A stretch of 64,000 nt of DNA, from NCBI GenBank assembly GCA_049968235.1, contig JBMFRC010000004.1, forward strand, positions 160,001 through 224,000. The letters run 5' to 3'. How positions within the stretch are numbered: the stretch's first letter is position 1; each line of letters opens with the position of its first letter. Position numbers and translations under genes: made by a program. Below the pieces are notes generated by a model. The model was not told the DNA's origin. It did no database searches and saw nothing but the letters and a program-made list of their open reading frames with translations. This document shows, one piece after another, positions 32,812 through 64,000 of this stretch. The stretch comes from Candidatus Hydrogenedens sp. (GTDB taxonomy: Bacteria; Hydrogenedentota; Hydrogenedentia; Hydrogenedentales; Hydrogenedentaceae).

Positions 32812-34995
32812 ATGAAAAAAAAAGAGACTATATTTTTTCTTTTAATTATTCTTTTTGCGATTGTAATACGGGTTATATATTTCTACTATATCTCACAACA
32901 ACCTGAATTTTCACACCCAATTATAGATCCTCAATTTAACGATTACTGGGCACATAAAATATTGTATCAGGGTAATTATCCATCTCCAACGGGAGATGAC
33001 CCTATGATAGAAAATACACCTTATGGAAGACCGCCAGGTTATCCTTTTCTTCTAGCTTTTATATACTTTCTTTTCGGAGATAATTATAATTCTCCGCGGT
33101 TAATACAATTTTTTGTGGGAATTGTAAATGTTTTTTTTATGTATTATTTTGTTTCGAGAATTTTTGTGAGTAAAAAAGCAGGATTAGTTTCTGCATTTTT
33201 AATGGCTATCCTTTGGGAACCTATTTATTTTGAAGGGGAAATAAACTATCCTGTATGGGTAATCTCACTTACAATAGTTCTTTTATTTACCTCATTACGA
33301 TATCTGCAAATAAAAACAACAAAATTTGTGATTCTTTCGGGCTTTTTACTAGGAATTATCGCTCTCTTTAGACCCAATGGACTTTTATTGTTACCTATGT
33401 ATGTTGGAATTGTGTTTCATATATTTGGGAAACGGAACTTCAAGAAGGCTCTTGCTCATTGCATTCTCTTTTCTGTATCCGTATTCTTAATAATATCTCC
33501 TGTTTTTATTAGAAACTATATAGTCAGTAATGATTTTTTTTTGATTTCGTGTTTTGGGGGGATAAATACATACATAGGTAACAATGCCCAGTCAACGGGG
33601 GACAGTCCTACGGTCCCGAATATAATTCATTTGTGTGGAGTTGATAATTGGGATTGTTTTAATTATCGATTATTAGTAAAAGGTCTTGGGATAAAACAAG
33701 AGGGTCGTTACTATTCATTCAAGGAGGCTTCTCAGTTCTTTTATAAAAAGGTTTATGAGTATTGGAAAAAAGAACCTATCTCTGCAATCAAATTAACGGC
33801 TCGTAAATTCTTTTTATTTTGGGGTCCTGCTATAGTTTCTGATGGAAAAGTTATTTATCATGACAGGGAAGCAACATTTCTTCGTTTATTGCCCGGTTTT
33901 CCTTTTCTGGTGGGATTATCTTTTTACTTCTTAATTTTGTTTATTCGACAGAGAAATCAATTACCTCCGGAACTTAAAACGCTTCTATTATTTATTTTTA
34001 CATGGAGTTTTGTTTATTCGTTATCTGTTATTCCTTTTTTTGTTTCAGAACGATACCGAATCCCTATTATTCCACCTTTATGCATTATAGGGGGAATAGG
34101 TACCGTTTTATTTCTTAGTAATACTGGTAATCAAAATAAGTTAAACAAGTTTAAACAAATTATTATTTGTTTACTATGCCTTACCCTTGTTTATAAGACA
34201 CCTGTAAAATATGAACCGGATACACCTCGATGGTTTTACCATAAAGCCATTGTTTCCTATAAATCTCAAAATGAAAAAGATGCGGTTTACTATGCTAATA
34301 AAGCCATTTCAAAGAACCCCAATTATTCAGAAGTTTATGCCTTTCTTGGTATAATCTCTCTTAATCATCATGAGTTTAAAGAGGCAGAAAATTATTGTTT
34401 AAAAGCATTAGAAAAAAATCCTGATTATGCTATGGCAAATAATAATTTAGGTTATATTATGGAATTAGAAAAGAAATTTGACCTTGCAGAAAAGTATTAC
34501 TATAAAGCATGTGAATTAAGTCCTGTATATACCCTGGCATGGATAAACCTCGGGAGAATGTATTTGTATTATCATAACCAGATTAACTTAGCAAAAGATT
34601 GTTTCGTAAAAGTAACTGAGTTAGACCCCAACTCATGGGTTGGATGGTTTCACTTAGGGAATGTATATATACAAATGGGAGAATACTCCTCAGCGGAGAA
34701 ATTTCTAACAAAATCTCTTTCATTAAATCCGGAAAATGCCCTTATTCATAATAATTTTGGTTTTTTATATATACAGAGAAAACAGTATGAAAAAGCGATA
34801 GAGTTTTTAAAAACAGCATTAGAAAAAGAGCCACAATTTACAGATGCTATGTTTAATCTCGGGAATGCGTTTAAAGAAATGAAGCAATATGAAGAGGCAG
34901 AATATTGGTATAAAAAAGTTTTAGAAATTGACCCACAATTTACAGATGCAGTAGATAAAATCAATGAAATAAATACAAATAAAAAAACTAACTAA
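32812..34995 (+). CDS. membrane GT-C glycosyltransferase (PMT/ArnT/TMTC-like) fused to C-terminal TPR repeats, subfamily A
   Basis: 727 aa. About 12 TM helices in the N-terminal 440 aa, with an acidic first-loop motif (PQFNDYWAHK) and RPPGYPFLLA. C-terminal about 270 aa of canonical TPRs (AFLGIISLNHHEFKEAENYCLKALEKNPDY...). The architecture parallels eukaryotic TMTC O-mannosyltransferases. Confidence 0.65.
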   Translation: MKKKETIFFLLIILFAIVIRVIYFYYISQQPEFSHPIIDPQFNDYWAHKILYQGNYPSPTGDDPMIENTPYGRPPGYPFLLAFIYFLFGDNYNSPRLIQFFVGIVNVFFMYYFVSRIFVSKKAGLVSAFLMAILWEPIYFEGEINYPVWVISLTIVLLFTSLRYLQIKTTKFVILSGFLLGIIALFRPNGLLLLPMYVGIVFHIFGKRNFKKALAHCILFSVSVFLIISPVFIRNYIVSNDFFLISCFGGINTYIGNNAQSTGDSPTVPNIIHLCGVDNWDCFNYRLLVKGLGIKQEGRYYSFKEASQFFYKKVYEYWKKEPISAIKLTARKFFLFWGPAIVSDGKVIYHDREATFLRLLPGFPFLVGLSFYFLILFIRQRNQLPPELKTLLLFIFTWSFVYSLSVIPFFVSERYRIPIIPPLCIIGGIGTVLFLSNTGNQNKLNKFKQIIICLLCLTLVYKTPVKYEPDTPRWFYHKAIVSYKSQNEKDAVYYANKAISKNPNYSEVYAFLGIISLNHHEFKEAENYCLKALEKNPDYAMANNNLGYIMELEKKFDLAEKYYYKACELSPVYTLAWINLGRMYLYYHNQINLAKDCFVKVTELDPNSWVGWFHLGNVYIQMGEYSSAEKFLTKSLSLNPENALIHNNFGFLYIQRKQYEKAIEFLKTALEKEPQFTDAMFNLGNAFKEMKQYEEAEYWYKKVLEIDPQFTDAVDKINEINTNKKTN

Positions 34996-35008
34996 ATATT
35001 AAAAGAAT

Positions 35009-37654
35009 ATGGATAACGAAAATAAAAAAAATAAAGATTGGGTAATTCTCTCGTGGATACTTTTGTTTGCGTTCTGTTTTCGGATTATTTATCTCTGGCA
35101 ATTAGTAGATGCTCCAGACTTTATTGCACTTCGGCAGGACTTGGATGTTCAGGATTATCAGGCAAGAGCGATACTATCCGGAGATTGGACTGTTCGGGAA
35201 GGGGTTTCTGACCCACATATTCCAACGACGCCGTATTATCGACCTCCGGGTTACCCATACTTCCTTGCAGTTGTATATTATTTTTTTGACGGTTCCTATC
35301 TGGCACCGCGATTCATTCATTTTTTTCTTGGACTCGTGCATATTGTCCTAATATATTTTTTAGCCAGAATTATATTTAATAGAATCGCAGGTTTATGTGC
35401 ATCTTTTCTTGTAGCCACTTATTGGGCTTTTATTTATTATGAAGGAGAAGTAAACGACCCTGCTTTATTTGTTTTTCTTGTCCCCTGTATATTATTTCTG
35501 ATTTATTATGCTGTTACTAAGGACTTTATCTTGTATTCTTTTTTCTCAGGCTTATGTATTGGTATATATGCCATCATGAGACCTAATATTCTATCATTTA
35601 TTCCTTTTTTATCATTATGGATTTTGTTCTTTTTTTATAAGCAGAAAAAACTATTTAAGAGTTTCTTTCATATATTTTTTTTGATAATTGCAATTTTTAC
35701 TGTGATAACTCCGGTTACAGTTCGGAATTATCTCGTATCGGGTGAATTTGTGCCTATCTCTACTTATTTTGGGGAGAATCTATTGATAGGAAATAGTGAG
35801 GATGCTGATGGAGTAACGCCGTGGTTGCCTTACCTTCAGGAATTAGAAGGAACGGGTAATTGGTCTGTATGGCATTATGATAATGTTGTAAAGGGTTTAG
35901 GGAAATTTTTGGGGAGAGAAGTTTCACATTCCGAAGCATCAAATATTTTTGCTAAAATGGCTATAAATTATATTATTCATCACCCATGGCAAACATTTTT
36001 ACTCACATGCAAAAAAGCTATTTTATTCTGGAGTCCACAAGAAATTACAGAGAACAAAGTTGTAGAGGGGGAAAGACAACATTATATACCTCTGAAATAT
36101 ATGCCTCGATTTCCTATTGTCCTGAGTACATTTTTATTAGGTTTGTTTTTTTTGATAAAAAATATATTTTTCAATAAGACATTTAAAGATACAAATATAA
36201 ATATTTATTTTCTAACACTGGTATTGTTGTTTATATTTACATATTTTGCTTCATTTCTTCCCTTTTTTGTAAATGCAAGGGCTCGTGTTCCGATATTGGG
36301 ATTGATGTTCATCATCGGCGGATACACATTTTCAGAAATTCGGTATTTATTTGTTAAGAGAAGAATAACTCCCGCTCTCATAAGTATTTTTGTTTTAGTA
36401 ATACTTTTTCTCATAACTCATATTGATATTATTCCCTATAAACCGGATATGTGCCGTTGGCATTATGACCGTGCTGACTCTTATCTCCGTGTAGGTCGTG
36501 TTGATGAAGCATTACAGGAAGTACATGCTCTTATGTCTCGTCCGGAACGTCCTATGACTTACATGCCATTCCGGCTGGGACATGCACTTGCAAAGTTAAA
36601 TTATTCCGAATTAGCTATAGATTTATTACGACTGGCACTTAGTCCTGACCCTTCAGAACAGCCTTCTATGTATAGAGAAGATATTTACTATCATATCGGT
36701 GCTTTATTTATGAAATTAAAAAGATATGATGAAGCCATCAAAGAATTTGAAAATGCTTTATCTTTAAATCCCAAAGACCCGAGAGTTCATAATGACCTAG
36801 GTGTCATTTACAAAGAACGCAATGACTTAGTAAAAGCCGAACAAGAATATAAATATGCTATTGATACAGAACCAGAATTTAATCTTGCTATAGCAAACTT
36901 GACAGAATTGTATATTCAACAGAAAAAATACGCTGAAGCGATTGAATTGCTGGGAAATAGCCTAAAATTACAGCCTCAAAATACAGAGTTACTTTATAAT
37001 TTAGGATTTGTTTATCATAATTCGGGACAACTTGAAAAAGCACTTTCCTATTACCAACAAGTATTATCTCATGATAGTAAGGAACCTAATACACTTAATA
37101 ATATGGCTATGATTTATTTAGAAAAAAATGACCTGGAAAAAGCCAAAAATACCCTGTTATGGTGTATATGCAAGAATTCCTATTTTACACTCGCATATGC
37201 GAATATGGGGGACATTTTATATTCAGAAAACCAACTACCAAAAGCCCTATATTATTATGATAAAGGGCTTGAAACGAATTATGAACATATAGGACTTTGC
37301 GCTGCGTTAGCCTTACTTTATACAGAAATGGGTAATGCCGAGAAAGGGATTGTGGAATTAATGGATGTTTTAAAAAAACATCCAGAGTCCACCAATTTAT
37401 GGTTTGCTCTGGGAAATATCTATAAAAATAGTAATCAAAATAATGAGGCTATTGGTGCTTATAATAAAGTATTAGATATAGATAGTTCTTATACATCGGC
37501 GTATAGAAATTTGATGGAAATTTATTTAAATAAAGGAGATGTTAATAAAACACTGGAAATCTTTGAAAAAGCGAAACAAAACATTAAAGATTCTGAACAA
37601 ATAGAATATTTATCCTCTCTTATCCTGGAAAAACAAGGAAATACCAATAAATGA
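35009..37654 (+). CDS. membrane GT-C glycosyltransferase (PMT/ArnT/TMTC-like) fused to C-terminal TPR repeats, subfamily A paralog
   Basis: 881 aa. Paralogous to the upstream gene (VQDYQARAIL...YYRPPGYPYFLAVVYYFF). Multiple TM helices. C-terminal about 400 aa of TPRs. Stop overlaps the downstream GT2 start (ATGA at 37651-37654). Confidence 0.65.
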   Translation: MDNENKKNKDWVILSWILLFAFCFRIIYLWQLVDAPDFIALRQDLDVQDYQARAILSGDWTVREGVSDPHIPTTPYYRPPGYPYFLAVVYYFFDGSYLAPRFIHFFLGLVHIVLIYFLARIIFNRIAGLCASFLVATYWAFIYYEGEVNDPALFVFLVPCILFLIYYAVTKDFILYSFFSGLCIGIYAIMRPNILSFIPFLSLWILFFFYKQKKLFKSFFHIFFLIIAIFTVITPVTVRNYLVSGEFVPISTYFGENLLIGNSEDADGVTPWLPYLQELEGTGNWSVWHYDNVVKGLGKFLGREVSHSEASNIFAKMAINYIIHHPWQTFLLTCKKAILFWSPQEITENKVVEGERQHYIPLKYMPRFPIVLSTFLLGLFFLIKNIFFNKTFKDTNINIYFLTLVLLFIFTYFASFLPFFVNARARVPILGLMFIIGGYTFSEIRYLFVKRRITPALISIFVLVILFLITHIDIIPYKPDMCRWHYDRADSYLRVGRVDEALQEVHALMSRPERPMTYMPFRLGHALAKLNYSELAIDLLRLALSPDPSEQPSMYREDIYYHIGALFMKLKRYDEAIKEFENALSLNPKDPRVHNDLGVIYKERNDLVKAEQEYKYAIDTEPEFNLAIANLTELYIQQKKYAEAIELLGNSLKLQPQNTELLYNLGFVYHNSGQLEKALSYYQQVLSHDSKEPNTLNNMAMIYLEKNDLEKAKNTLLWCICKNSYFTLAYANMGDILYSENQLPKALYYYDKGLETNYEHIGLCAALALLYTEMGNAEKGIVELMDVLKKHPESTNLWFALGNIYKNSNQNNEAIGAYNKVLDIDSSYTSAYRNLMEIYLNKGDVNKTLEIFEKAKQNIKDSEQIEYLSSLILEKQGNTNK

Positions 37655-38802
37655 CACATTGTGATGAAATAGAACTAAGCGTTGTATTACCTTGTTTGAA
37701 TGAAGAACGGACTATTGGACAATGTGTACAGAAAACACAAAAGGTTTTCGATAAATATCATATTAAAGGTGAAATTATTGTCGCAGATAATAATTCTACG
37801 GATAGTTCCTCATCAATTGCGGAACAAGCAGGTGCGAAGGTAGTCAAGGTAATTACTCCTGGATACGGGAATACTCTTCGAAACGGTATAAAAGAAGCAA
37901 AAGGGAAATATATAATCTTTTTTGATTCTGATTTATCCTATGACCCTGAGGATATTCCTCAAATATTAGAGAAATTACGAGAAGGTTATCCTATTGTTCT
38001 GGGGTCTAGGAAAAAAGGAACGATTGATAGAGGCTCTATGCCATGGTTACATAGATATATAGGCACTCCGATAATGACTTTACTTGCGAATATTTTTTTT
38101 AAGGCACATATAACGGATATTAATTCGGGTATGCGTGGTATGTCCCGAAAAGTATTTGATGAATTAGATTTACATTCGGAAGGCATGGAATTTGCTTCTG
38201 AAATGATAGCAAAAGCACATTGGACCCAAACTAAAATAGCGGAAGTTCCTATTCATTTTCACTGTGACCAGAGGGGAAGGCGTCCACATTTACATTCTGT
38301 TCGTGATGGATGGAGACATTTACAACTTATGTTTCATTATTGTTCTATTAATTGGTTTCTTATACCGGGTTTTATATTGTTATTTTTTTCATACCTTGTA
38401 TTTTTTATTCTGCCTCAGTATATGGATATTTATACATCCTTTTTTATTTCTTTACTAACCAACATTATTGCAACCCAAATTTTATTGATTGGAGTCATTG
38501 CTCAGGGTAGAGTTCGTGGTTCAAAGTTTAGATACATTCCATCAAAATATCTCCTTTTTTTATCCCGAATAATCAAAGTCGAAAAGGGTATGTTTTTGGG
38601 TTTAGGGATATGTTTTTTAGGCATGTTTTTAATGCTTTATACTCTTCGTTCAGGAATAAACATGCCAGATATAACTATAAAAATATTTTTTGGGGGTATT
38701 CTATGTTTTGTTCAGGGGGTTCAGGTTTTATTTAGTTCCATTTTAATCGGGCTGTTTGGAATTCGTGTTTCAGAAGAGGAAGAATTTTTTAGAAAATCTT
38801 AG
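37651..38802 (+). CDS. GT2 polyprenyl-phosphate glycosyltransferase (DPM1/ArnC/GtrB-like) with C-terminal TM helices
   Basis: 383 aa. GT-A N-terminus (LSVVLPCLNEERTI, DSD...YDPED). Four C-terminal hydrophobic helices. This is the architecture of lipid-phosphate-sugar donor synthases that feed GT-C enzymes. Confidence 0.8.
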   Translation: MTHCDEIELSVVLPCLNEERTIGQCVQKTQKVFDKYHIKGEIIVADNNSTDSSSSIAEQAGAKVVKVITPGYGNTLRNGIKEAKGKYIIFFDSDLSYDPEDIPQILEKLREGYPIVLGSRKKGTIDRGSMPWLHRYIGTPIMTLLANIFFKAHITDINSGMRGMSRKVFDELDLHSEGMEFASEMIAKAHWTQTKIAEVPIHFHCDQRGRRPHLHSVRDGWRHLQLMFHYCSINWFLIPGFILLFFSYLVFFILPQYMDIYTSFFISLLTNIIATQILLIGVIAQGRVRGSKFRYIPSKYLLFLSRIIKVEKGMFLGLGICFLGMFLMLYTLRSGINMPDITIKIFFGGILCFVQGVQVLFSSILIGLFGIRVSEEEEFFRKS

Positions 38803-38817: not shown

Positions 38818-40281
38818 ATGAAACATGTTGTATTTGTAATGCCACCATATCCTTATTCTCGTTCCATTGGACAGGAGGAAGGAAAAAGGCAAATTGGGTT
38901 AATGCCGCCTTTAGGTGTTGGGTATCTTACTGCATACTTAGAGCGGACAGGGAAATACCAATGTTATTTTGTCGATGCAGTTGCGGAGAGGTTATCTATT
39001 GAGGAAACTGTTTCTCGTATTCTATCATTCGAACCGGATGTAATTGGAATTTCATCTTTTACGACTTTTCTTCTCAATACTTCATATCAACTTGCACGAA
39101 GATTAAAAGAAGAATGTCCTTCGATTCCATTGTTAATGGGAGGTCCTCACACTACTTCTTTCGGGGAACAGGTGTTGAAAGACTGTCCGTATATTGATTA
39201 TGTCATTCCGGGAGATGCTGAAGTTCCTCTTTTAGAGTTATTAGAAAAGATTTTTTGTGGAGATATACCGGATAAGGTAAAAGGCATCATTTATAAAAAT
39301 GAAAAAGATGAAATCGTAGATACGGGCTGTTCTATCCCTGTAGATGATATTGATACTCTACCTTTCCCCTCACGACACATTTATAACCATGAGTTATATG
39401 AGCCTTTACCGAGTTTAAGTCCCAAACGCCCTGCCATGTCGATGATTACAGCACGGGGTTGTCCATGGGCACGATGTAAATTTTGTTATCAGGGAGGGAA
39501 ATATGCATCTCCATTTCGTCGTCGGTCTCCGGAAAATGTTGTGGCAGAATTAAAATACCTTATTGAAAAATATAATGTAAAAAATATTGTATTCTGGGAT
39601 GATAATTTTTGTATCTTTCCTGAATGGATACATAAATTTTGCTCCCTTATAAAACAGGGGAAAATAAAATTAGATTGGTCTGTTTTATCGCGTGTAAATA
39701 CAGTAACACCGGAAATGTTAAATGAAATGGCAGAAGTAGGTTGTTACAGTATTCAATTTGGTATTGAATCCGGAAATGAGGAAATACTTAAACTTATTCG
39801 AAAAGGTCACACATTAGAACAATGTCGAAATGCAGTCCGCTGGGCAAAATCCGCTGGTATGGAGACAAGGGCTTTCTTTGTTTTGGGTTTTCCTACGGAG
39901 ACCCCAGCAATGAGTGAAGAGACTATTCGTTTTGCATGTGAATTAAATATCGATTATGTTGTTTTCTTTTCGTATTATGTAGCACCCGGAACACTTCTTG
40001 CCGAGATTGCTATGAGAGAAGGGCAGTGTTTTGAATTTATAGGACAACATTTACCTTCTTACCTTCCTAATACCTATCCTGATTTGGAGACATTAACAAA
40101 GAAAGTACAATCCGCCTATCGAAGATATTACCTCAGACCTCGATATTTCGCTCGAACTATTACAAGAACGATTCGTCGTCCCCATCATTTGAAAAATCAA
40201 ATAAAGGCATTTAATTATTGGCTTGGATTGAGTTTAAAAAAATGGACTCACAACAAAAATTCAACAGTTAACATAACCTAA
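38818..40281 (+). CDS. B12-binding domain radical SAM protein (class B rSAM)
   Basis: 487 aa. N-terminal cobalamin-binding Rossmann region (DVIGISSFTTF...LLMGGPHTT). Radical SAM Cys cluster (RGCPWARCKFCYQG), then the TIM-barrel core. Confidence 0.8.
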   Translation: MKHVVFVMPPYPYSRSIGQEEGKRQIGLMPPLGVGYLTAYLERTGKYQCYFVDAVAERLSIEETVSRILSFEPDVIGISSFTTFLLNTSYQLARRLKEECPSIPLLMGGPHTTSFGEQVLKDCPYIDYVIPGDAEVPLLELLEKIFCGDIPDKVKGIIYKNEKDEIVDTGCSIPVDDIDTLPFPSRHIYNHELYEPLPSLSPKRPAMSMITARGCPWARCKFCYQGGKYASPFRRRSPENVVAELKYLIEKYNVKNIVFWDDNFCIFPEWIHKFCSLIKQGKIKLDWSVLSRVNTVTPEMLNEMAEVGCYSIQFGIESGNEEILKLIRKGHTLEQCRNAVRWAKSAGMETRAFFVLGFPTETPAMSEETIRFACELNIDYVVFFSYYVAPGTLLAEIAMREGQCFEFIGQHLPSYLPNTYPDLETLTKKVQSAYRRYYLRPRYFARTITRTIRRPHHLKNQIKAFNYWLGLSLKKWTHNKNSTVNIT

Positions 40282-52312: not shown

Positions 52313-52617
52313 GAAAATCAACCTGGTCTCAAGCACAATTAGAATATTCGATAACGACAAGTGTATTGGGTACCACGAAGAAATTCAAAATTTAGCAAGT
52401 TAATATCTAAAACTAAAAAAACTCCTTTCATCAGTCTGCGAATAATCAATTCATTTAATTAAAAAGTATTCAGCCCACTTTATTACCACTTCACAATTAA
52501 AATAAAGAATATATATCCAATATTAAGAGGACGATATGAGAATTTAAGAAACGATAGAATTTGAAGGAGTTTACTACCCACCTTCTGCTGAGTAAAAAAA
52601 ACAGCCCTCAGGAAAAT

Positions 52618-52900
52618 ATATCTTCGACCTATAAGAAATTGGACATAGATAGTAAACGCAGACCTATAACAGAGGGGGAAACATAATGCCAGAAAAGGTA
52701 TTCGAGTATATAATAAACAGGCATAGTGGCAGGGTCATAAAGAGGATTTAAGAAAAGGAATTCCTTTAATGACCCAGCATTTATATGAACTAAACTGGAA
52801 TACTCATCCCACCACCCTGATTCATCTGAAGTTTTATATATACAAATAACAAAAGCCAATAAAATAATAAGCAAACAAAAAACAAACACTTGTATATTAT
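52618..52900. repeat. direct repeat copy B (inside the chimeric pseudogene)
   Basis: See copy A. The two copies have the same orientation and lie about 7.8 kb apart. They bracket the IS remnant, two GT-C paralogs and a B12-rSAM gene. Confidence 0.7.
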
Positions 52901-57841: not shown

Positions 57842-58828
57842 TTATATCCATAGAGCATTCCAGATTGCAGAAGGATTTAAATTCCATATTAAAGCAAGTT
57901 CTACTATCGGTGCACACCAACAGGTTGCACAACCTATAGGAACTGTTAATTGTTTTATTGACTTCTCGAAATTTTTTTCTGTTTCTTTTTTCTGTTTATA
58001 CAGTTTTCGTGTTCCAAACAAGTGGCAGGAAAGTATCGTTCCATCCGGTTCTATTGTATATGTTAACCGACCTGCACAACACCATATTTTCGTGGGATGA
58101 GGCCAGTTGCTTAAATATTTTAAGCCTGCAAATGAATTGCGTACAGGTGCCCCCTGTTTTTTATTTTTTATAATGTACTGTATCGTATCAAAATACTCAT
58201 CTTTATTAGGAGCAATTGGATTGGGTTTTAATGATGAATCCAGATGTAGAGTTGCAGGTTGAAACATTACTTTAATATGTTCTTCCTGAGCCTTTTGCAA
58301 AACATAATCTATTGTTTTTATATTTAGTTTTGAAATTACACATAAAAAAGATGTAGATATATTTTTCATTTTGCAATATTTTACAACCTCAAATAAATGT
58401 TTGTAGGTCCCTTTACCTCGGATTTCATCATGTATCTCTTCGGGACCATCAAAACTTAAATTAATATGGTCAATATACTTCTCAATTCCGTCATGTTTTT
58501 CTATGTTTACCCCCGTAGAACTTAAAAAAATGTTCAATCCAAGTGATTTTGAATGTTGCAAAATTGTCATTATATCTTTTTTAATTAATGGTTCTCCTCC
58601 ACCAAATGTAATCCATCTTACACCTGATTTGTATAAGATTGTTAATCTTTCTATAATTTCTTCCGTATCTAACTCATTTATAGAAACTTCACGAGAACCA
58701 CAGTAAAGGCACTGATAAGGACAACGAAAAGTTAAATTCCATTCTACAAACAATGGTGCATTTATCCCTAATATTTTTGTTTTTATCCATGATTTTAAGA
58801 GTGCAGGGACGTTTTTTATTTTCTTCAT
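57842..58828 (-). CDS. radical SAM protein with C-terminal SPASM/twitch-like Cys-rich domain
   Basis: 328 aa. CxxxCxxC (LTFRCPYQCLYCGS). C-terminal auxiliary-cluster cysteines (CCAGRL...CHLFG...CATCWC). Confidence 0.7.
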   Translation of the reverse strand: MKKIKNVPALLKSWIKTKILGINAPLFVEWNLTFRCPYQCLYCGSREVSINELDTEEIIERLTILYKSGVRWITFGGGEPLIKKDIMTILQHSKSLGLNIFLSSTGVNIEKHDGIEKYIDHINLSFDGPEEIHDEIRGKGTYKHLFEVVKYCKMKNISTSFLCVISKLNIKTIDYVLQKAQEEHIKVMFQPATLHLDSSLKPNPIAPNKDEYFDTIQYIIKNKKQGAPVRNSFAGLKYLSNWPHPTKIWCCAGRLTYTIEPDGTILSCHLFGTRKLYKQKKETEKNFEKSIKQLTVPIGCATCWCAPIVELALIWNLNPSAIWNALWI

Positions 58829-59757
58829 TGAATACTTTCTTCCAAATGAATCTTTTTATATAATTTCAATCGAAATAGTGCTAACCAACCTACGGGAATC
58901 CATATCCAGAATGTAATTATACGAAACAGTCCTATAACAAGGATTATTTCTGGCAACTGAACCTTAAGCCAGTGCAGAGAAATACTCATTGTTGTTTCAA
59001 CAATCCCAATTCCTCCGGGGATTCCGCTACATATTGCGAGGAAGAGATTTCCCAACACAATCATTTCTGCTTGAGTTAAATATATTCCTGATTCTTTTCC
59101 TCCTAACAATAAATAAAAAATAAGACCGTTAACAGCCCAACCTATTGAACAACCTATGCAAAATATGATGAGGAATAAAGGATGTGATAAATCATCTGCC
59201 AGTGATATTTTGAATTTTGATAACAAGGGCTTTGACATTTTAATGAATAAAGGGAACATAATTAATATTAAAAGTGAAAGAATTATCGGCAGGAGAAAAG
59301 TATTCGCATAAAATCCTAAGGACATAATTATTATTAAAAATGCTCCTTCAAAAACACATAATAAAAATAGAAATTCTAAAGACATTGCCTTTGAGAGGGA
59401 AATATCTGTTGTTTTTGTAATTATATATCCTCTTAAAGCCCTTCCTAACTGTGCGGGCAATATAATTCCTGCTCCAGAACTCAGGTAAATCCAAACTGAC
59501 TTCATTATAGGAACATTTGCAGAATACTTTTTGAGCATACATCTCCATAAATAATAATCCAATATCCAGTCTAACAACCGTAAAGAACATGCAAACAGGA
59601 ACAATCGCCATCTATTTATAATTAAATTCTTTATATCTGTAAGATTCTCTTCTCTTATCTGATAAATTCCAAAACAAGTTATTACAAAAAGAAGAACAAA
59701 ACCAGATATATGTAGTAAATTTAATATTTTGTCTTTATTTTTTATAAAATTAAACAT
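58825..59757 (-). CDS. flippase-like polytopic membrane protein (UPF0104 / LPG-synthase-TM-like)
   Basis: 310 aa, about 8 TM helices. This family is commonly adjacent to GT2 polyprenyl-phosphate glycosyltransferases. Overlaps the upstream rSAM by 4 nt. Confidence 0.5.
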   Translation of the reverse strand: MFNFIKNKDKILNLLHISGFVLLFVITCFGIYQIREENLTDIKNLIINRWRLFLFACSLRLLDWILDYYLWRCMLKKYSANVPIMKSVWIYLSSGAGIILPAQLGRALRGYIITKTTDISLSKAMSLEFLFLLCVFEGAFLIIIMSLGFYANTFLLPIILSLLILIMFPLFIKMSKPLLSKFKISLADDLSHPLFLIIFCIGCSIGWAVNGLIFYLLLGGKESGIYLTQAEMIVLGNLFLAICSGIPGGIGIVETTMSISLHWLKVQLPEIILVIGLFRIITFWIWIPVGWLALFRLKLYKKIHLEESIQ

Positions 59758-59781: not shown

Positions 59782-60978
59782 TTGTATATGATACCACGAC
59801 GATGGATACATATTTTACCTGCTGAATATAACGAAGTTCTAAATCCTTCCCCGGAAGTACTATCCAATTACGATATTATTTCCCGATGGGAAAATGAGTT
59901 CCGTTCTTTTATAGGTTCTCCAAATGCTGTTTCTTTGCCCTCTGGAAGAGTTGGACTAAAACTTATATTACAACATTTGAATCTTAAAGAGAATGACGAA
60001 ATAATTATTCCTGCACTCACATTGAAAGCACTGGTAAGTATTATAACATCATCAGGACTAAAACCTGTTTGTGCAGATATAAACCCTAAAACATTAAATA
60101 TAGACCCTGAATCGGTTCAGAATTTAATTTCACCCCGAACAAAAGCTATAATCGCTTTACATACTTTTGGGAATCCTTGCTTAATTGAAAAAATATGCAA
60201 AATAGGTCAGGAAAATAATATCCCTGTTATTGAAGATACTGCTCATGCTTGTGGTGCCAGAATTCAGAATCAATTTGCGGGGACATTCGGATATGCTGGT
60301 TTTTTTAGTTTTGATATATCCAAGCCCGTAAATACATACGGGGGTGGAATGGTTACCAGTGAAGATTCGTCACTTATTGACTTCATTCGAGAATACAATA
60401 AAAAACTTATTATAGATACAGTTGAAATAACCAGGAAAGCAAAGTCTATTAAGTTAGAACAGACGTTATATAACATAAAACTCATGTATCCTATTCTTTA
60501 TTTAAGACTGTTCCGACCCTTTTTTAAGTCCCTTGAGTTTGTATACCGTAAAATTCAAAGTGTCCCTCCCGAGAATGTTCAGTTTACACCTCTACAAGCA
60601 AGTATAGGCATAGAAAAATTACCTTTCTTAAGTTCAAAAGTAGAACAAAGAAATGAAGTGGCACAATTATATCGTAAGTTATTATCTGATAAAATTAATA
60701 TTCCTTATGTAAGACCTGATTGTATACCTTCTTATTACATGTTTGTTGTTATTCTTCCTAAAAAATCTCATAATATCTGTTCTTCCCTTCTTTTTCGTGG
60801 TATTGATACTGCATTTGAGGAAGAAATAATTGATGATGTTTCTCTAATAATTGAAAAATCACATTGTCCAAACGCTAATAAGGTATACCCAAATTTGTTA
60901 GCCTTACCTTTCTATGATGGTATTTCACAAGATACTATTGAATATATCTGTAATTGTTTAAATAAACTTGTGGAATAA
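59782..60978 (+). CDS. DegT/DnrJ/EryC1/StrS-family PLP-dependent sugar aminotransferase
   Basis: 398 aa. Fold-type I aminotransferase. PLP-lysine region GFFSFDISKPVNTYGGG. DTAHA motif. Confidence 0.8.
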   Translation: MYMIPRRWIHILPAEYNEVLNPSPEVLSNYDIISRWENEFRSFIGSPNAVSLPSGRVGLKLILQHLNLKENDEIIIPALTLKALVSIITSSGLKPVCADINPKTLNIDPESVQNLISPRTKAIIALHTFGNPCLIEKICKIGQENNIPVIEDTAHACGARIQNQFAGTFGYAGFFSFDISKPVNTYGGGMVTSEDSSLIDFIREYNKKLIIDTVEITRKAKSIKLEQTLYNIKLMYPILYLRLFRPFFKSLEFVYRKIQSVPPENVQFTPLQASIGIEKLPFLSSKVEQRNEVAQLYRKLLSDKINIPYVRPDCIPSYYMFVVILPKKSHNICSSLLFRGIDTAFEEEIIDDVSLIIEKSHCPNANKVYPNLLALPFYDGISQDTIEYICNCLNKLVE

Positions 60979-60990
60979 AATAAAAAACTA

Positions 60991-63900
60991 TTAATCGGAA
61001 AGACCGATTCGTTTAATTCTTTGCTTTATATCGTCATTTTGAGGATTGAGGCTTATAACTTCTGAAAATACTTTTTTTGCATTATTTTTATCGTTTATTT
61101 TGAGGTATGTTTCCCCTAATTCTATTAACACTTCTGTAAGTGTTTCTAGTGGGACATCTTTTACTTTTAGTTTTTGAACTGCTTCTTGAAAAAGTTGTAT
61201 TGCCTGTTGATAATCACCTATCTCTTTTTTAAATTCAGCATAAGTTGCCCAGCCTTCACCATCACCGGGGTATATATCCAACGCAGTTTTATAAGCCTTC
61301 TCTGCCTCCTCGTATCTTTTCTGCTTTCTATACAAATTTCCTAAATTCCTCCATGCAAGAGGAAATTTGTATTCTAAATTTATCGCTTCCTTTAAATGTT
61401 CTTCTGCTAAATCAAACATACCCACCTGAAAAGCATAAAATCCTAAGGCATTGTGCAGGTTATGGTCATGAGGCTGTTTTTCTAATGCTTTTTCAAAATA
61501 AGGAATTACTTTTTCCAATTCCCCTTTTACATAAAAGGCATCAGCAATATTATATAGAGCGTTTATTAGGTCGGGTTTTATGGATAATGATTTTTGATAA
61601 AGTTCTATTGCTTTGTCAATATCCCCCGACACAAAAGCATGATACCCTAAATTATTATATGCCAGCGGATTTTTATCGTCTATTTTCAGAGCTTTGTTAT
61701 ACATTTCTTCCGCTTCTTTTGTTTTCCCTAATCGGTCGTATAAAACTCCTAGGTCATAAGGGACATAAGAATTATTTGGGCTATTTATCATCGCCTTCCG
61801 GTATAAGTCTATTGCTTGCTCTGTATTCCCCTTCTTTTCTGCCAACTGTGCTAGGTTATAGTATGCCAATTCATCATCAAGTCTTATTTTTAAGGCTTCA
61901 TAAAATTTACTTTCCGCTTCTTCCCACTTATTTAACTTGACTAATAAACTCCCCCAGTTGTTCAATACTAAAGTAAAATCAGGAACAATTTCTAATGCCT
62001 TTTTAAAGTGCTCTATGGCTTCTTCAGGTTTATCGTCTTGTATTAAGATTGCTAATTCTCGATGTGCTCGTGCATCCTTCGCATTCATTTCTATTGCTTT
62101 TTCAAAATATGCTATCGCTTCTTCTTTTTTTCCCATCCTTGACAATACCTGTCCTGTCATATAATATACATTCTGAGAGGAGGGGTCAATATTTAATGCT
62201 AACTTTAATTTTTCTAATGACTTTTCATACTCTCCTTTATTAGCATAAATAGCACCCATTTTGGCTATAACATAAGAAAACTGAGGATAGGCTTCTAACG
62301 CTTTTTCATAACAGGTAATCGCTTGTTCATAGTCTTTCCTCATTTCCATAATCTCTCCCAACTCATTCCATGCCCGAGCATCCCTAACATTTAGTTCTAT
62401 TGCTTTTCGAAAATAAACCTCCGCTTCATCCATTTTTTTCTGTTTCTTTAAAGCACATCCTAAAAGATAAATACTGTCTTGATATTCCGGATTTAGTTGA
62501 ATTGCCTTTTTAAAATTATTCACAGCCTCTTGTAAGTTATCTTTGGCAAAAAGAATCCTTCCCAATCGCTCATAGGCATAGGCAAAATCGGGTTTAGCAG
62601 ATACTGCTCGTCGGTAATATTCTTCTGCTGTATCCCATTCGCCATCATCCGCATGAATATTCCCCAATTCACAGAGTGCTCTTGCATCCTCTGGATTTAA
62701 ATCTATCGCTTTTAACAAAGTATCTCTCGCTTCTTCAATTCGACCTATATTCCTCAATTCTCGACCTATAAGAAAATATACATCTTGATATGAAGGGTCT
62801 GTCTCCAACGCCTTTTTGTAAAAAGTCAGAGCATCTTCAGACCGTCCTTGTGATGAGAGTATTCTGCCATATTTATCCAGGACATAAGTAAAATCGGGTA
62901 TAATTTGCAGAGCCTTTTCATAATGTATAAGTGCTTCCTTCCAATTTCCCTGGTGTTCAAGAATTTCTCCTATCTCGTTGTGGGCACGGGCATCATTCGG
63001 ATTTAATTCAAGCGACTTTATAAAATATTTCTCTGCCTTCACTTCATCTTTTAATGCAAGATAAGTTTTTCCAAGATAATAAAACATATCTTGATAATCG
63101 GGGGCTAATCGGATGCCTTTCTCGAACTGTTCTTTTGCCTCGTGAAAATAACCCGATTTAAATAAGTCCTTGCCTAACCGATGATGCATATAGGGTAAAC
63201 TTTTAGGCATGTAAAGAAGTGTCTGTGCTTCTTCCAGAGCCTTTTGAATTTCTCCTCTTCTTAAATACGAATCGGCTCGTTGATAATGCCACCTTGCCAA
63301 ATCTGGTTCAAAGGGAACCCATCGGATAGAAATAAGAATAAAGCATACAAGGAGTAGTGACAACCAACGCGTTAAAGATAAAGTATCTTTATTTTTTATA
63401 CATACCCACAAAAAATAAATAAAGTTTGCACCTATTAAAAAGAACAAAGGGAGAACAGGAACGCGTGCTCTCCCATTCACAAAAAACATCAAGAAACTGC
63501 CTAAATAAGTGATAATAAATAAATAAATTAACAATAACAATTCGTTAGAATATGAACTATTCGATAGAAAAAGAAATTTTGAAATATTGTCTTTGCTTAA
63601 CCCAGATTTTATGTTTAAAAAAATAAGAATTGTGCCTGCAATAAAAAGCCCGCCTGCCCATGGAAAAGTGGGGAGATATTTCAGAGGAGGGTAATGTTTT
63701 ATTTCGTAATACACAACTTTATTACAGGTAATTTCGATAGGACACCACAGTAAAATTGCTTTTTTAATAATCTGTATAATTGTTTTTTCAGGATGCGTTT
63801 TAATATATTCCAATGCTTTCTTTGTAAATATCATTGAAGCATCTGCATGTTTCAAGTTTTTTATCCCCAATTCTTTACCCAATCCTTTTACCACATTCAC

Positions 63901-64000
63901 ATAATCACGGGCAGTCCAGTTTCCAGTACCTTCTAATTTTTGTAAATATTGATTCCATGGAGTTGTGCCGTCTGCTTCCGGATTATTACCTATAAAAAGA
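60991..64000 (-). CDS. membrane GT-C glycosyltransferase fused to a very long TPR array, subfamily A; 5' end lies beyond the window
   Basis: The ORF-track start at 63900 (MNVVKGL) is internal. The reverse-strand frame stays open to position 64000 and reads ...GNNPEADGTTPWNQYLQKLEGTGNWTARDYVNVVKGLGKELG. This aligns to LIGNSEDADGVTPWLPYLQELEGTGNWSVWHYDNVVKGLGKFLG of the 35009-37654 protein. It is followed by more than 20 TPR repeats. Confidence 0.7.
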   Translation of the reverse strand, partial: LFIGNNPEADGTTPWNQYLQKLEGTGNWTARDYVNVVKGLGKELGIKNLKHADASMIFTKKALEYIKTHPEKTIIQIIKKAILLWCPIEITCNKVVYYEIKHYPPLKYLPTFPWAGGLFIAGTILIFLNIKSGLSKDNISKFLFLSNSSYSNELLLLIYLFIITYLGSFLMFFVNGRARVPVLPLFFLIGANFIYFLWVCIKNKDTLSLTRWLSLLLVCFILISIRWVPFEPDLARWHYQRADSYLRRGEIQKALEEAQTLLYMPKSLPYMHHRLGKDLFKSGYFHEAKEQFEKGIRLAPDYQDMFYYLGKTYLALKDEVKAEKYFIKSLELNPNDARAHNEIGEILEHQGNWKEALIHYEKALQIIPDFTYVLDKYGRILSSQGRSEDALTFYKKALETDPSYQDVYFLIGRELRNIGRIEEARDTLLKAIDLNPEDARALCELGNIHADDGEWDTAEEYYRRAVSAKPDFAYAYERLGRILFAKDNLQEAVNNFKKAIQLNPEYQDSIYLLGCALKKQKKMDEAEVYFRKAIELNVRDARAWNELGEIMEMRKDYEQAITCYEKALEAYPQFSYVIAKMGAIYANKGEYEKSLEKLKLALNIDPSSQNVYYMTGQVLSRMGKKEEAIAYFEKAIEMNAKDARAHRELAILIQDDKPEEAIEHFKKALEIVPDFTLVLNNWGSLLVKLNKWEEAESKFYEALKIRLDDELAYYNLAQLAEKKGNTEQAIDLYRKAMINSPNNSYVPYDLGVLYDRLGKTKEAEEMYNKALKIDDKNPLAYNNLGYHAFVSGDIDKAIELYQKSLSIKPDLINALYNIADAFYVKGELEKVIPYFEKALEKQPHDHNLHNALGFYAFQVGMFDLAEEHLKEAINLEYKFPLAWRNLGNLYRKQKRYEEAEKAYKTALDIYPGDGEGWATYAEFKKEIGDYQQAIQLFQEAVQKLKVKDVPLETLTEVLIELGETYLKINDKNNAKKVFSEVISLNPQNDDIKQRIKRIGLSD

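What the first reader, a model, noticed from the sequence alone, without database searches (positions are those of the whole stretch)
32812..64000. 31-kb island with six paralogous TPR-fused GT-C glycosyltransferases plus a polyprenyl-P-sugar GT2: candidate TMTC-like protein O-glycosylation system
Six membrane GT-C glycosyltransferases occur in this island. Subfamily A comprises 32812-34995, 35009-37654 and 60991->64000. Subfamily B comprises 42859-45072, 45937-48261 and 48221-50470 and carries the DE first-loop motif of PMT/ArnT enzymes. All six are fused to C-terminal TPR or TPR-like soluble domains.

The architecture (multi-TM GT-C + TPR) is that of eukaryotic TMTC1-4 and the logic is that of mycobacterial Ppm1/Pmt. 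In both, a GT2 makes polyprenyl-phosphate-sugar and a GT-C transfers it to Ser/Thr of proteins, with TPRs presumably selecting the acceptor. Here the GT2 (37651-38802) is translationally coupled to a GT-C/TPR gene.

Six paralogs with divergent TPR domains suggest six acceptor specificities or glycan steps. I am not aware of a characterised bacterial system with this multiplicity. The island also carries rSAM, carbamoyl and amidino chemistry.
Basis: partly seen in the sequence, partly recalled or inferred. Interest (0 to 1): 0.85.

Follow-up and report, generated by a model that had tools for sequence, protein, structure and literature searches.

The report
Clustered TPR-fused membrane glycosyltransferases in Hydrogenedens
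An uncultured Hydrogenedens bacterium carries six ArnT/PMT-type membrane glycosyltransferases with periplasmic repeat domains, next to an enzyme that makes a lipid-linked sugar; they are real, but they form several separate gene modules of a known kind, and what they glycosylate is unknown.

Summary
All six ORFs exist at the stated coordinates, in two subfamilies.

- **Subfamily B** (B1, B2, B3): B3 has a GT-C fold (best matches STT3/PglB/ArnT) and an invariant W-x-DEY motif after TM1. Its tail is an alpha/beta domain plus a helical region that is only weakly TPR-like.
- **GT2:** its closest solved relatives are polyprenyl-phosphate sugar synthases (P. furiosus DPMS, ArnC, GtrB). Its start overlaps the A2 stop codon (ATGA).
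- **Topology:** an 11-TM, N-in model puts the soluble domains in the periplasm.

- **Not one system:** HK–sigma54 regulator–A1–A2–GT2–B12-rSAM–unknown–esterase, with B1 convergent, is conserved in six related MAGs. The rSAM2/B3/B2 trio recurs elsewhere in unrelated contexts. Here an IS481 remnant and gene fragments flank it.
- **Not TMTC members:** there is no DUF1736 loop and no DD motif.
- **Architecture is common:** thousands of protein clusters share it. P. aeruginosa TfpW is a characterised bacterial precedent.
- **Acceptor unresolved:** protein versus glycan cannot be decided from sequence.

Verdict: a new variant of a known kind, of moderate interest.

The parts
27188..29722 (+). 844-aa TPR/BamD(YfiO)-like protein. 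It is the first gene of the conserved same-strand run upstream of A1.
   Evidence: Pfam TPR and YfiO hits. Sub-threshold PrsT/YbgF/BamD hits. Orthologs sit at the same position in L005 and L006.
29735..30181 (+). 148-aa coiled-coil protein with only a weak FliT-like hit.
   Evidence: PF05400 FliT, E 3e-4, below cut-off. Conserved in L005 and L006.
30171..31343 (+). PAS sensor histidine kinase.
   Evidence: HisKA, HATPase_c and PAS domains. Conserved upstream of A1 in 8 loci.
31376..32767 (+). Sigma-54-dependent response regulator (NtrC/AtoC type).
   Evidence: Response_reg, Sigma54_activat and HTH_8 domains. Conserved upstream of A1.
32812..34995 (+). A1: GT-C (PMT_2) membrane domain of about 11 TM, plus 7 TPRs and a capping helix.
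35009..37654 (+). A2: GT-C (PMT_2) plus a longer TPR domain (881 aa).
   Evidence: PMT_2 E 3e-11 and TPR hits. 31% identical to A1. Tandem A1-A2 arrangement conserved.
37651..38802 (+). GT2 polyprenyl-phosphate glycosyltransferase with four C-terminal hydrophobic helices. Its start overlaps the A2 stop codon.
   Evidence: Glycos_transf_2. AglJ, PpgS, Dol-P-hexose and ArnC model hits, all below cut-offs. Best PDB matches are PfDPMS 5MLZ (2e-16), ArnC and GtrB. ATGA overlap.
38818..40281 (+). B12-binding radical SAM enzyme (rSAM1).
   Evidence: B12-binding and Radical_SAM domains. HpnJ/BchE-like, sub-threshold. Conserved after the GT2.
40298..41767 (+). U489: conserved protein with a hydrophobic, signal-peptide-like N-terminus (read by eye) and no family assignment.
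   Evidence: No Pfam hit even at E<=10. Only a 24-bit GH130-like NCBIfam hit. No PDB hit. Conserved in six loci.
41784..42857 (+). Alpha/beta hydrolase resembling CE15 glucuronoyl and acetyl-xylan esterases.
   Evidence: Peptidase_S9, GCE_fung and AXE1 hits. PDB matches to CE15 esterases. Conserved.
42859..45072 (-). B1: divergent B-type GT-C with a DEY loop motif, an alpha/beta domain and a TPR-like tail. It is convergent on the A operon.
   Evidence: PMT_2 1.6e-4, below cut-off. 22% identical to B3. Its tail gives weak BLAST hits to A TPRs. Position conserved.
45377..45667 (+). IS481-family transposase remnant between B1 and B2.
   Evidence: tblastn: 34-36% identity over 90% of the 96-aa ORF to annotated IS481 transposases, E 2e-5. 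No Pfam hit.
45937..48261 (-). B2: B-type GT-C. The likely true start is the ATG at 48207.
   Evidence: 31% identical to B3 over 747 aa. DEY motif. B3-B2 tandem conserved in L003 and L004.
48221..50470 (-). B3: B-type GT-C plus an alpha/beta domain and a helical tail.
   Evidence: PMT_2 5e-8. AF2 pLDDT 70.8. Foldseek top hits STT3, PglB, AglB, ArnT, AftA and Pmt4. Profile against PDB: ArnT, 7e-4.
50774..52312 (+). rSAM2: B12-binding radical SAM enzyme with a hydrophobic C-terminal tail. It is divergent from B3.
   Evidence: The rSAM2/B3/B2 trio is conserved in L003 and L004.
52578..52907 (-). Pseudogene fragment of a B1-like GT-C (N-terminal 110 aa only).
   Evidence: tblastn: 72% identity to B1 residues 8-112, E 1e-41. 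The ORF is truncated at 86 aa.
53021..53338 (-). Fragment of an rSAM1-like B12-binding domain.
   Evidence: tblastn: 39% identity to rSAM1 residues 30-136.
53452..56121 (-). WbuX-type N-acetyl-sugar amidotransferase plus HisF2/WbuZ and HisH homologs. Together they form an acetamidino-sugar module.
   Evidence: All three pass NCBIfam cut-offs: 218.6/203.2, 327.7/310 and 197.6/105.4.
56066..57811 (-). NodU/CmcH-type carbamoyltransferase.
   Evidence: Carbam_trans_N and Carbam_trans_C.
57842..58828 (-). Radical SAM/SPASM-type enzyme.
58825..59757 (-). LPG_synthase_TM / flippase-like membrane protein. It is the only flippase candidate, and it is not in the A operon.
   Evidence: PF03706 7.5e-21. 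TIGR00374 sub-threshold.
59782..60978 (+). DegT/PseC/LegC-type sugar aminotransferase.
60991..64000 (-). A3: A-type GT-C, N-terminally truncated by the window end, with a very long TPR domain (17 TPR_2 stretches).

Best explanation
**What the region is.** It is a juxtaposition of at least three gene modules for extracytoplasmic, lipid-linked-sugar-dependent glycosylation in a Candidatus Hydrogenedens MAG. It is not one six-enzyme machine.

**Module 1** is conserved in this lineage. It is a same-strand run: TPR protein, small coiled-coil protein, PAS histidine kinase, sigma54 response regulator, A1, A2, GT2, B12-radical-SAM enzyme, unknown protein U489 and a CE15-like esterase. B1 is convergent on this run.

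**Inferred mechanism for module 1.**
1. The GT2 loads one sugar from a nucleotide sugar onto polyprenyl phosphate at the cytoplasmic face.
2. The lipid-linked sugar is flipped. No flippase was identified in the operon.
3. A1 and A2, and possibly B1, use it as donor. All are 11-TM GT-C enzymes with the conserved first-loop Asp and the loop-5 Arg.
4. The sugar goes to a periplasmic acceptor held or selected by the C-terminal TPR domain.

**Module 2** is rSAM2 with B3 and B2. It is an independently conserved trio of a membrane-tailed B12-rSAM enzyme and two B-type GT-Cs. It appears to have been brought next to module 1 by rearrangement: an IS481 remnant lies on one side and pseudo-B1 and pseudo-rSAM fragments on the other.

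**Module 3** is WbuX/HisF2/HisH, a carbamoyltransferase, an rSAM/SPASM enzyme, a flippase-like protein and DegT. It makes modified amino sugars. A3 is a further stand-alone A paralog.

**Shown versus inferred.**
- Shown: folds, motifs, family relationships and synteny.
- Inferred: donor identity, flipping, topology and transfer.
- Unresolved: the acceptor. Roughly 40-50% for protein Ser/Thr, as in TfpW and TMTC, and the rest for an envelope glycan or lipid.
For: - **GT-C fold of B3.** The 19 Foldseek hits with E<=0.001 are all OST catalytic subunits (STT3, PglB, AglB) or ArnT, and most weaker hits down to rank 26 are further GT-C enzymes (AftA, Pmt4, AftB, ALG9, AftD, ALG12). The B profile's best PDB match is ArnT.
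- **Family matches.** PMT_2 hits.
- **Catalytic residues.** DEY is invariant in B. D39, R414 and others are invariant in 27 A-family sequences.
- **GT2.** Best solved relatives are PfDPMS, ArnC and GtrB. NCBIfam hits are AglJ, PpgS and Dol-P-hexose models. It has four C-terminal hydrophobic helices and an ATGA overlap with A2.
- **Topology.** Helix count and K/R distribution fit 11 TM, N-in, C-out.
- **Synteny.** Module 1 is conserved in L005, L007, L008, L010 and L011, and partly in L006. Module 2 is conserved in L003 and L004 among unrelated neighbours, and lies on a different contig from module 1 in GCA_017880035.1.
- **Rearrangement marks.** IS481 remnant. Pseudo-B1 and pseudo-rSAM fragments.
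- **Precedents.** TfpW. Three-component GT2/flippase/GT-C systems.
Against: - No flippase (GtrA, MATE or ArnE/F type) was found in module 1, so donor delivery is assumed.
- Nothing shows that the GT2 serves A1/A2 rather than another GT-C. Most A-family genes in other genomes have no GT2 within 10 kb.
- Topology rests on helix counting in AF2 secondary structure and a modest positive-inside signal. It was not checked with a dedicated predictor or with coordinates.
- The B3 model is only medium confidence (pLDDT 70.8) and its C-terminal part is poor.
- Structural equivalence of A-family D39 to ArnT D55 was not verified. hhalign aligned the B DEY motif to a different, unconserved A1 position in a low-confidence stretch.
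- Operon structure is inferred from spacing and strand only. No sigma54 promoter consensus lies directly upstream of A1.
Confidence: 0.7

Rival explanations
1. The whole 31-kb region is one TMTC-like protein O-glycosylation system. The GT2 makes the lipid-linked sugar, and six TPR-fused GT-C paralogs each glycosylate Ser/Thr of a different set of envelope proteins, or perform successive glycan steps.
For: - A multi-TM GT-C with a periplasmic TPR domain matches TMTC1-4 and the pilin O-glycosyltransferase TfpW.
- The TPR domains differ greatly in length between paralogs: 7, about 11 and about 22 repeats.
- Catalytic residues are retained in all visible paralogs.
- The GT2 is coupled to A2.
Against: - The six genes are not a conserved unit. 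The B3/B2/rSAM2 trio and the A locus occur apart in other genomes.
- The junctions here carry an IS remnant and gene fragments.
- There is no DUF1736 loop or DD motif.
- No candidate acceptor such as a pilin or an S/T-rich protein was found among the annotated genes of 27-64 kb.
- Esterase and amino-sugar genes in and around the locus fit a glycan acceptor equally well.
- Only one GT2 is present for six transferases.
Confidence: 0.2
2. This is a glycan- or lipid-modifying system of the ArnT / GtrABC / three-component type. The GT-Cs add side-chain sugars to LPS, capsule, EPS or S-layer glycan in the periplasm. The TPR domains dock onto export or assembly machinery, or bind the polymer, rather than select proteins.
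For: - ArnT is the closest solved structure for both subfamilies.
- GT2 plus GT-C pairs that modify glycans are the commonest characterised bacterial case.
- The operon encodes a CE15-like carbohydrate esterase and U489, which has a weak GH130-like hit and a signal-peptide-like N-terminus.
- An acetamidino/carbamoyl amino-sugar cluster with a flippase-like gene lies adjacent.
- The upstream TPR protein, kinase and sigma54 regulator give sub-threshold hits to the EPS-linked PrsT/PrsK/PrsR models.
Against: - In the papers searched here, the GT-C enzymes with a fused TPR domain whose acceptor is described (TfpW, TMTC1-4) act on proteins.
- No Wzx/Wzy/Wzz, ABC exporter or initiating phosphoglycosyl transferase was seen in the window.
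- ArnT similarity reflects the shared fold and does not indicate the acceptor.
Confidence: 0.35
3. Some of the paralogs, especially the B family or B1, are catalytically dead scaffolds or receptors. They have kept only the GT-C fold.
For: - B2 has no PMT_2 hit and B1 is below the cut-off.
- The B3 model has medium confidence.
- A truncated B1-like pseudogene shows that gene decay occurs in this family here.
Against: - W-x-D-E-Y, R97, R145 and R363 are invariant across B1, B2, B3 and their orthologs.
- D46 and E47 remain invariant even when remote PMT_2 homologs are added.
- The ORFs are intact and have orthologs at 50-73% identity.
Confidence: 0.05

Closest known systems
Pseudomonas aeruginosa TfpW (pilin O-arabinofuranosyltransferase, GT-C)
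   Same: [quoted passage not shown] It models best on ArnT, and its TPR models best on OGT. It uses a polyprenyl-phosphate monosaccharide donor. The A1 model gives the same two best templates.
   Different: - tfpW lies directly downstream of pilA and is linked to D-Araf (PRPP-derived) donor genes.
- Here there is no pilin gene. The donor enzyme is a GT2 rather than a phosphoribosyltransferase.
- There are tandem paralogs plus a B12-rSAM, an esterase and a sigma54 two-component system.
- Direct sequence relatedness to TfpW was not tested.
Eukaryotic TMTC1-4 (GT105 protein O-mannosyltransferases)
   Same: - Both have 11 TM helices and a lumenal or periplasmic TPR domain.
- Both have ArnT as the closest solved homolog.
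- Both have an Asp in EL1 and an ER-x-x-Y-like motif before TM10 (A1 E413-R414-Y415-R416).
- Both occur as several paralogs per genome.
   Different: - There is no match to the DUF1736 (PF08409) loop model.
- EL1 has D-P in family A and D-E in family B, not D-D.
- The SHKSYRP and KE(T/Q)xxT motifs are not recognisable as such.
- The donor here would be on bacterial polyprenyl phosphate.
- The TMTC acceptors, cadherin EC domains, are not known here.
ArnT / ArnC (lipid A aminoarabinose system) and GtrA/GtrB/GtrC-type three-component systems
   Different: - ArnT has 13 TM helices and a small alpha/beta periplasmic domain, without TPRs. B3 does have an alpha/beta domain at that position.
- No small flippase gene is present in the operon.
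- The acceptor is unknown.
Actinobacterial Ppm1/Pmt and eukaryotic PMT1/2 (GT39)
   Same: The logic is the same: a polyprenyl-phosphate-mannose synthase plus a GT-C with a D-E motif in loop 1. Pmt4 and Pmt2 appear among the structural matches.
   Different: There is no PF02366 PMT match and no MIR domain. TPR or alpha/beta-plus-helical tails take its place.

Membership tests
GT-C superfamily, ArnT/PMT clan (Pfam PMT_2; GT39/GT83-like) | Multi-spanning N-terminal domain with the GT-C fold | tested here: met
- B3: the 19 Foldseek hits with E<=0.001 are all OST catalytic subunits or ArnT, and further GT-C enzymes follow among the weaker hits.
GT-C superfamily, ArnT/PMT clan (Pfam PMT_2; GT39/GT83-like) | Profile match to PMT_2 above the curated cut-off | tested here: inconclusive
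   - Met for A1 (45 bits), A2 (44) and B3 (34), against a cut-off of 26.1.
- B1 scores 22 bits, below the cut-off. B2 has no hit.
- B2 is 31% identical to B3 over its full length.
- The matching part of A3 lies outside the window.
GT-C superfamily, ArnT/PMT clan (Pfam PMT_2; GT39/GT83-like) | Conserved Asp (usually D-D/E) in the first extracytoplasmic loop | tested here: met
   - B: D46 and E47 are invariant in 23 sequences.
- A: D39 is invariant in 27 sequences, but it is followed by Pro.
- Structural equivalence of D39 to ArnT D55 is inferred, not superposed.
GT-C superfamily, ArnT/PMT clan (Pfam PMT_2; GT39/GT83-like) | Conserved Arg in the loop before TM10 that binds the donor phosphate | tested here: met
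   A1 R414 (ERYR) is invariant. B3 R363 (ARY) is invariant. Positional equivalence is inferred from the helix order in the models.
TMTC family (GT105) | 11 TM helices with the C-terminal TPR domain on the non-cytoplasmic side | tested here: met
   A1 has 11 membrane helices in the AF2 model, and the K/R distribution fits N-in. TPRs are shown. Orientation is inferred, not measured.
TMTC family (GT105) | DUF1736 (PF08409) loop between TM7 and TM8, with the DW motif | tested here: not met
   No PF08409 hit for any N-terminal domain even at E<=10. Human TMTCs match it at E<1e-30. A1 has only a D-N-W280 in that loop.
TMTC family (GT105) | Strictly conserved DD motif in EL1 | tested here: not met
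   Family A has D39-P40. Family B has D46-E47.
TMTC family (GT105) | O-mannosylation of specific protein domains | not testable with these tools
   Needs biochemistry or glycoproteomics.
TfpW-type pilin glycosyltransferase | GT-C with 11 TM helices and a periplasmic TPR domain | tested here: met
TfpW-type pilin glycosyltransferase | Gene adjacent to the major pilin gene, with linked D-Araf donor genes | tested here: not met
   None of the non-overlapping ORFs of >=100 aa between 27 and 64 kb matches a pilin or a polyprenyl-phosphoribose synthase.
Polyprenyl-phosphate glycosyltransferase (GT2; DPMS/GtrB/ArnC/AglJ type) | N-terminal GT2 catalytic domain with an acidic DxD-type motif | tested here: met
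   PF00535 at 2.3e-28 over residues 10-172. The sequence FFDSDLSYDP is present.
Polyprenyl-phosphate glycosyltransferase (GT2; DPMS/GtrB/ArnC/AglJ type) | C-terminal transmembrane helices, and closest relatives that are lipid-phosphate sugar synthases | tested here: met
   - Four hydrophobic segments follow residue ~230.
- The best PDB hits are PfDPMS (which aligns through residue 288), ArnC and GtrB.
- An ortholog has a weak GT2_TM_C hit.
- All NCBIfam hits are below equivalog cut-offs, so the sugar is unknown.
Three-component extracytoplasmic glycosylation system (synthase + flippase + GT-C) | A dedicated flippase gene (GtrA, MATE or ArnE/F type) in the locus | tested here: not met
   None is present in the A operon. 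The only flippase-like gene (LPG_synthase_TM, 58825-59757) lies 20 kb away in the amino-sugar cluster.
   No such Pfam hit at E<=10. No such structure appears among the listed fold matches.

The most novel reading that the evidence does not exclude
The conserved locus (sigma54 regulator, A1, A2, GT2, B12-rSAM, U489, esterase) could be a regulated bacterial counterpart of the TMTC pathway. Tandem TPR-fused GT-Cs would O-glycosylate distinct sets of periplasmic or surface proteins. The sugar would first be loaded on polyprenyl phosphate and possibly C-methylated by the B12-radical-SAM enzyme. TPR length would set acceptor choice. On this reading the many stand-alone A paralogs across Hydrogenedentota, Zixibacteria, Ignavibacteriales, Planctomycetota and other phyla would form a large, unrecognised family of bacterial protein O-glycosyltransferases.
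Probability: 0.25. Interest if true: 0.7.

Novelty: new variant of a known kind. Interest (0 to 1): 0.42.

Why it matters
If the A family glycosylates proteins, it would extend TPR-guided, lipid-linked-sugar O-glycosylation from one pilin-specific Pseudomonas enzyme and the animal TMTCs to a broad set of uncultured bacterial phyla. It would also give a bacterial model for how TPR domains select acceptors.

The conserved pairing of GT-C enzymes with B12-radical-SAM enzymes occurs in both module 1 and module 2. It hints at an undescribed modification of the donor sugar or the acceptor.

As it stands, the locus is an uncharacterised example of a well-known enzymatic logic, in an organism that cannot yet be manipulated.

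Tried and rejected
- **phmmer against PDB.** The A1 N-terminal domain and B3 found nothing useful. Only the B profile reached ArnT.
- **Sigma54 promoter scan (TGGCAC-N5-TTGC, up to 2 mismatches).** There were more matches than in any shuffle, but none in the 44-bp gap before A1. No claim of sigma54 dependence of the operon is made.
- **U489.** No Pfam hit even at E<=10, no PDB hit, and only a 24-bit GH130-like NCBIfam hit. Its function is left open.
- **IS remnant.** Pfam was negative. tblastn against plasmids identified IS481-family transposases.
- **'Compositional island' rejected.** GC is uniform across the window.
- **Wzy/WaaL rejected**.
- **Flagellin as acceptor considered.** The leads were a FliT-like hit, a FlgR-like regulator and an acetamidino-sugar module. 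It was not pursued, because the hits are sub-threshold and flagellin does not normally pass through the periplasm (own knowledge).
- **Literature searches** for bacterial 'TMTC-like' proteins or PMT_2+TPR proteins found no characterised example other than TfpW.

Full report
**Source and setting.** The GT2 protein of the window is encoded identically on contigs of NCBI assemblies GCA_049971155.1 and GCA_049969095.1. Close homologs of the GT-C proteins are named 'Candidatus Hydrogenedens sp.' or 'Hydrogenedentota' by their sources. The window is therefore from an uncultured Hydrogenedens-type bacterium. GC content is uniform, at 0.31-0.385 across the whole window. The 31-kb region is not a compositional island. 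The first 27 kb encode ordinary housekeeping genes.

**Checking the observation.**
- A3 does run off the window. The frame is open to base 63999, and the additional residues align with A2 from about residue 258.
- Pairwise BLAST confirms two subfamilies. A1/A2/A3 are 26-32% identical. B2/B3 are 31% identical. B1 is a distant member of B at 22% to B3, E 3e-12. There is no direct A-to-B similarity in the membrane domain.
- PMT_2 (PF13231) is above its cut-off in A1, A2 and B3, below it in B1, and absent in B2.
- TPR families hit A1, A2 and A3 massively and hit none of the B proteins.
- The GT2 start ATG overlaps the A2 stop (AAATGA).
- The radical-SAM, carbamoyltransferase and acetamidino genes (WbuX, HisF2, HisH) are present. 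The last three pass NCBIfam cut-offs.
A 110-aa fragment 72% identical to the B1 N-terminus lies at 52578-52907, and an rSAM1-like fragment lies at 53021-53338.

**Fold of the membrane domains.**
- A1 was modelled from a 27-sequence alignment and gave pLDDT 94.2 and pTM 0.89.
- Foldseek against PDB was swamped by TPR proteins.
- B3 was modelled from 23 sequences and gave pLDDT 70.8.
- For B3, the 19 Foldseek hits with E<=0.001 were all OST catalytic subunits (STT3, PglB, AglB) or ArnT. Most weaker hits down to rank 26 were further GT-C enzymes: AftA, Pmt4, AftB, ALG9, AftD and ALG12.
- The B profile's best PDB sequence match is ArnT, E 7e-4.
- No Wzy, WaaL or other non-GT fold appears among the listed matches.
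- The helix boundaries of the first ~240 residues are almost identical in the two models.
- hhalign links the two N-terminal profiles weakly, at probability 57% and E 1e-4 over 367 columns.

**Catalytic residues.**
- In the B family, S42, W44, D46, E47, Y48, R97, R145 and R363 are invariant across B1, B2, B3 and six orthologs.
- D46, E47 and R97 remain invariant after 14 remote PMT_2 homologs are added. This is the D-E loop-1 motif of ArnT (D55/E56) and Pmt1 (D77/E78), as described in PMC7801869.
- In the A family, D39 is invariant but is followed by Pro.
- Other invariant or near-invariant positions in A include Y-x-R73-P-P-x-Y77-P, E141, R187-P-N, W280 and E-R414-Y-R.
- The last of these resembles the TMTC 'ERxxY' motif before TM10.
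- The structural equivalence of D39 to the catalytic Asp is inferred, because I could not superpose coordinates.

**Soluble domains and orientation.**
- A1 has seven TPR hairpins and a capping helix. A2 and A3 have progressively longer arrays. Pfam counts 17 TPR_2 stretches in A3.
- B3 has an alpha/beta domain (418-540) followed by paired helices (555-695) of low confidence.
- That helical tail aligns with the A TPR profile at probability 59%, E 9e-5. The alpha/beta control gives 0.3%.
- The B1 tail gives weak BLAST hits to A3 TPRs.
- More distant B homologs (E 1e-55 to 1e-68) carry genuine Pfam TPRs after the same alpha/beta domain.
- Treating the EL1 helices as juxtamembrane helices, as in ArnT and the TMTCs, leaves 11 membrane helices in both models.
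- Short loops assigned to the cytoplasm hold most of the K/R. In A1 this is 11 in 30 residues, against 3 in 18 for the short outer loops.
- With the N-terminus inside, the TPR and alpha/beta domains are periplasmic. This is an inference, not a measurement.

**The GT2.**
- It has a GT2 domain at residues 10-172 and four C-terminal hydrophobic helices.
- Its best solved relatives are Pyrococcus furiosus dolichol-phosphate-mannose synthase (5MLZ, E 2e-16, aligned to residue 288), ArnC and GtrB.
- Its NCBIfam hits are AglJ, PpgS, Dol-P-hexose transferase and ArnC, all below equivalog cut-offs.
- It is therefore a polyprenyl-phosphate glycosyltransferase of unknown sugar specificity.

**Is it one system?** Neighbourhoods of orthologs say no.
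- The run HK, sigma54 regulator, A1, A2, GT2, rSAM1, U489 and esterase, with B1 convergent, recurs in L005, L007, L008, L010 and L011. It recurs partly in L006.
- The upstream TPR protein and the 148-aa protein are also conserved.
- The trio rSAM2/B3/B2 recurs on its own. In L003 it sits among unrelated genes. In L004 it sits next to rpsD and purA.
- In GCA_017880035.1 that trio lies on a different contig from the A locus. There the A locus runs on toward WbuX/HisF without it.
- In this window the trio is bracketed by an IS481-family transposase remnant (45377-45667) and by the pseudo-B1 and pseudo-rSAM fragments. This points to rearrangement.
- Of 78 A-family loci in one-genome-per-species data, most carry a single A gene with no GT2 within 10 kb. 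About 20 MAGs show two or three separate A loci each.

**How common is the architecture?**
- The A family occurs in Hydrogenedentota, Ignavibacteriales, Zixibacteria, Sumerlaeota, Planctomycetota, Omnitrophota, Calditrichaeota and Acidobacteriota MAGs.
- A B-family profile finds 177 clusters at E<=1e-30 and 4516 at E<=1e-10 among 50%-identity cluster representatives. Many are 700-1100 aa with C-terminal TPRs.
- The close B2/B3 type is rare, with seven hits in the word-indexed search.

**Comparison with known systems.**
- The logic of a GT2 lipid-phosphate sugar synthase plus a GT-C acting outside the membrane is that of ArnC/ArnT, GtrABC, Ppm1/Pmt and the three-component systems reviewed in PMC11194591.
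- A multi-TM GT-C with a periplasmic TPR domain is already characterised in bacteria. P. aeruginosa TfpW has 11 TM helices and a periplasmic TPR. It models best on ArnT and OGT, and it is required for pilin O-glycosylation with D-Araf (bioRxiv 10.1101/2020.04.19.049825).
- The TMTCs share the 11-TM-plus-TPR layout. They are defined by a DUF1736 loop, a DD motif and further motifs (PMC7801869). The proteins here do not match these.
- These proteins therefore work like TfpW or the TMTCs in layout. They are not members of the TMTC family, and their relatedness to TfpW was not tested.

**What it most likely does.** The best-supported statement is that these are active, lipid-linked-sugar-dependent periplasmic glycosyltransferases organised in separate modules.
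- The acceptor is open.
- A protein acceptor is favoured by the TPR fusion and its two characterised precedents.
- A glycan or lipid acceptor is favoured by ArnT as nearest structure, by the CE15-like esterase, by U489 with its signal-peptide-like N-terminus, and by the adjacent amino-sugar cluster.
- Sub-threshold resemblance of the upstream TPR protein, kinase and sigma54 regulator to the EPS-linked PrsT/PrsK/PrsR models points the same way.
- No flippase is present in the A operon, and no acceptor candidate was identified.

**Verdict.** This is a new variant of a known kind, of moderate interest.

Noticed in passing
window 52578-52907 (-) and 53021-53338 (-): There is a truncated copy of the B1 N-terminus (110 aa, 72% identical; a seventh GT-C remnant). 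A fragment of an rSAM1-like B12-binding domain lies next to it. Both sit between rSAM2 and WbuX.
   Followed up: partly
window 45377-45667 (+), possibly continuing to 45995: An IS481-family transposase remnant lies in the 860-bp gap between B1 and B2. Together with the fragments above, it brackets the B2-B3-rSAM2 module.
   Followed up: partly
window 45937-52312; L003 8128-14532; L004 4125-10354: A B12-radical-SAM enzyme with a hydrophobic C-terminal tail is divergently paired with two tandem B-type GT-Cs. This three-gene module recurs in unrelated genomic contexts. B12-rSAM plus GT-C pairing also occurs in the A operon. The chemistry is unknown.
   Followed up: partly
window 27188-32767 (+): The A operon is preceded on the same strand by an 844-aa TPR/BamD-like protein, a 148-aa protein with a weak FliT-like hit, a PAS histidine kinase and a sigma54 response regulator. 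All are conserved in related MAGs. The TPR protein, kinase and regulator give sub-threshold hits to the PEP-CTERM PrsT/PrsK/PrsR models.
   Followed up: partly
window 40298-41767 (+): A conserved 489-aa protein with a signal-peptide-like N-terminus has no Pfam or PDB match. Its only hit is a 24-bit match to a GH130 mannobiose phosphorylase model. It always lies between rSAM1 and the esterase.
   Followed up: partly
window 48207 vs 48261 (-): The B2 start is probably the ATG at 48207 rather than the GTG at 48261 listed by the ORF finder. This removes the 41-nt overlap with B3 and matches the ortholog spacing.
   Followed up: partly
window 10032-13637 (-): A 1201-aa gingipain-like C25 cysteine peptidase with its propeptide domain. 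It is unrelated to the finding.
   Followed up: no
window 15558-16463 (-): A tyrosine recombinase (Phage_integrase family, XerC/D-like) lies among housekeeping genes.
   Followed up: no
L010, L012, L019, L021, L030 and other loci: Several MAGs titled 'uncultured Nitrospirales/Nitrospiraceae' carry the Hydrogenedens-type locus at 46-63% identity, including the full synteny in L010. Their taxonomic labels may be wrong.
   Followed up: no
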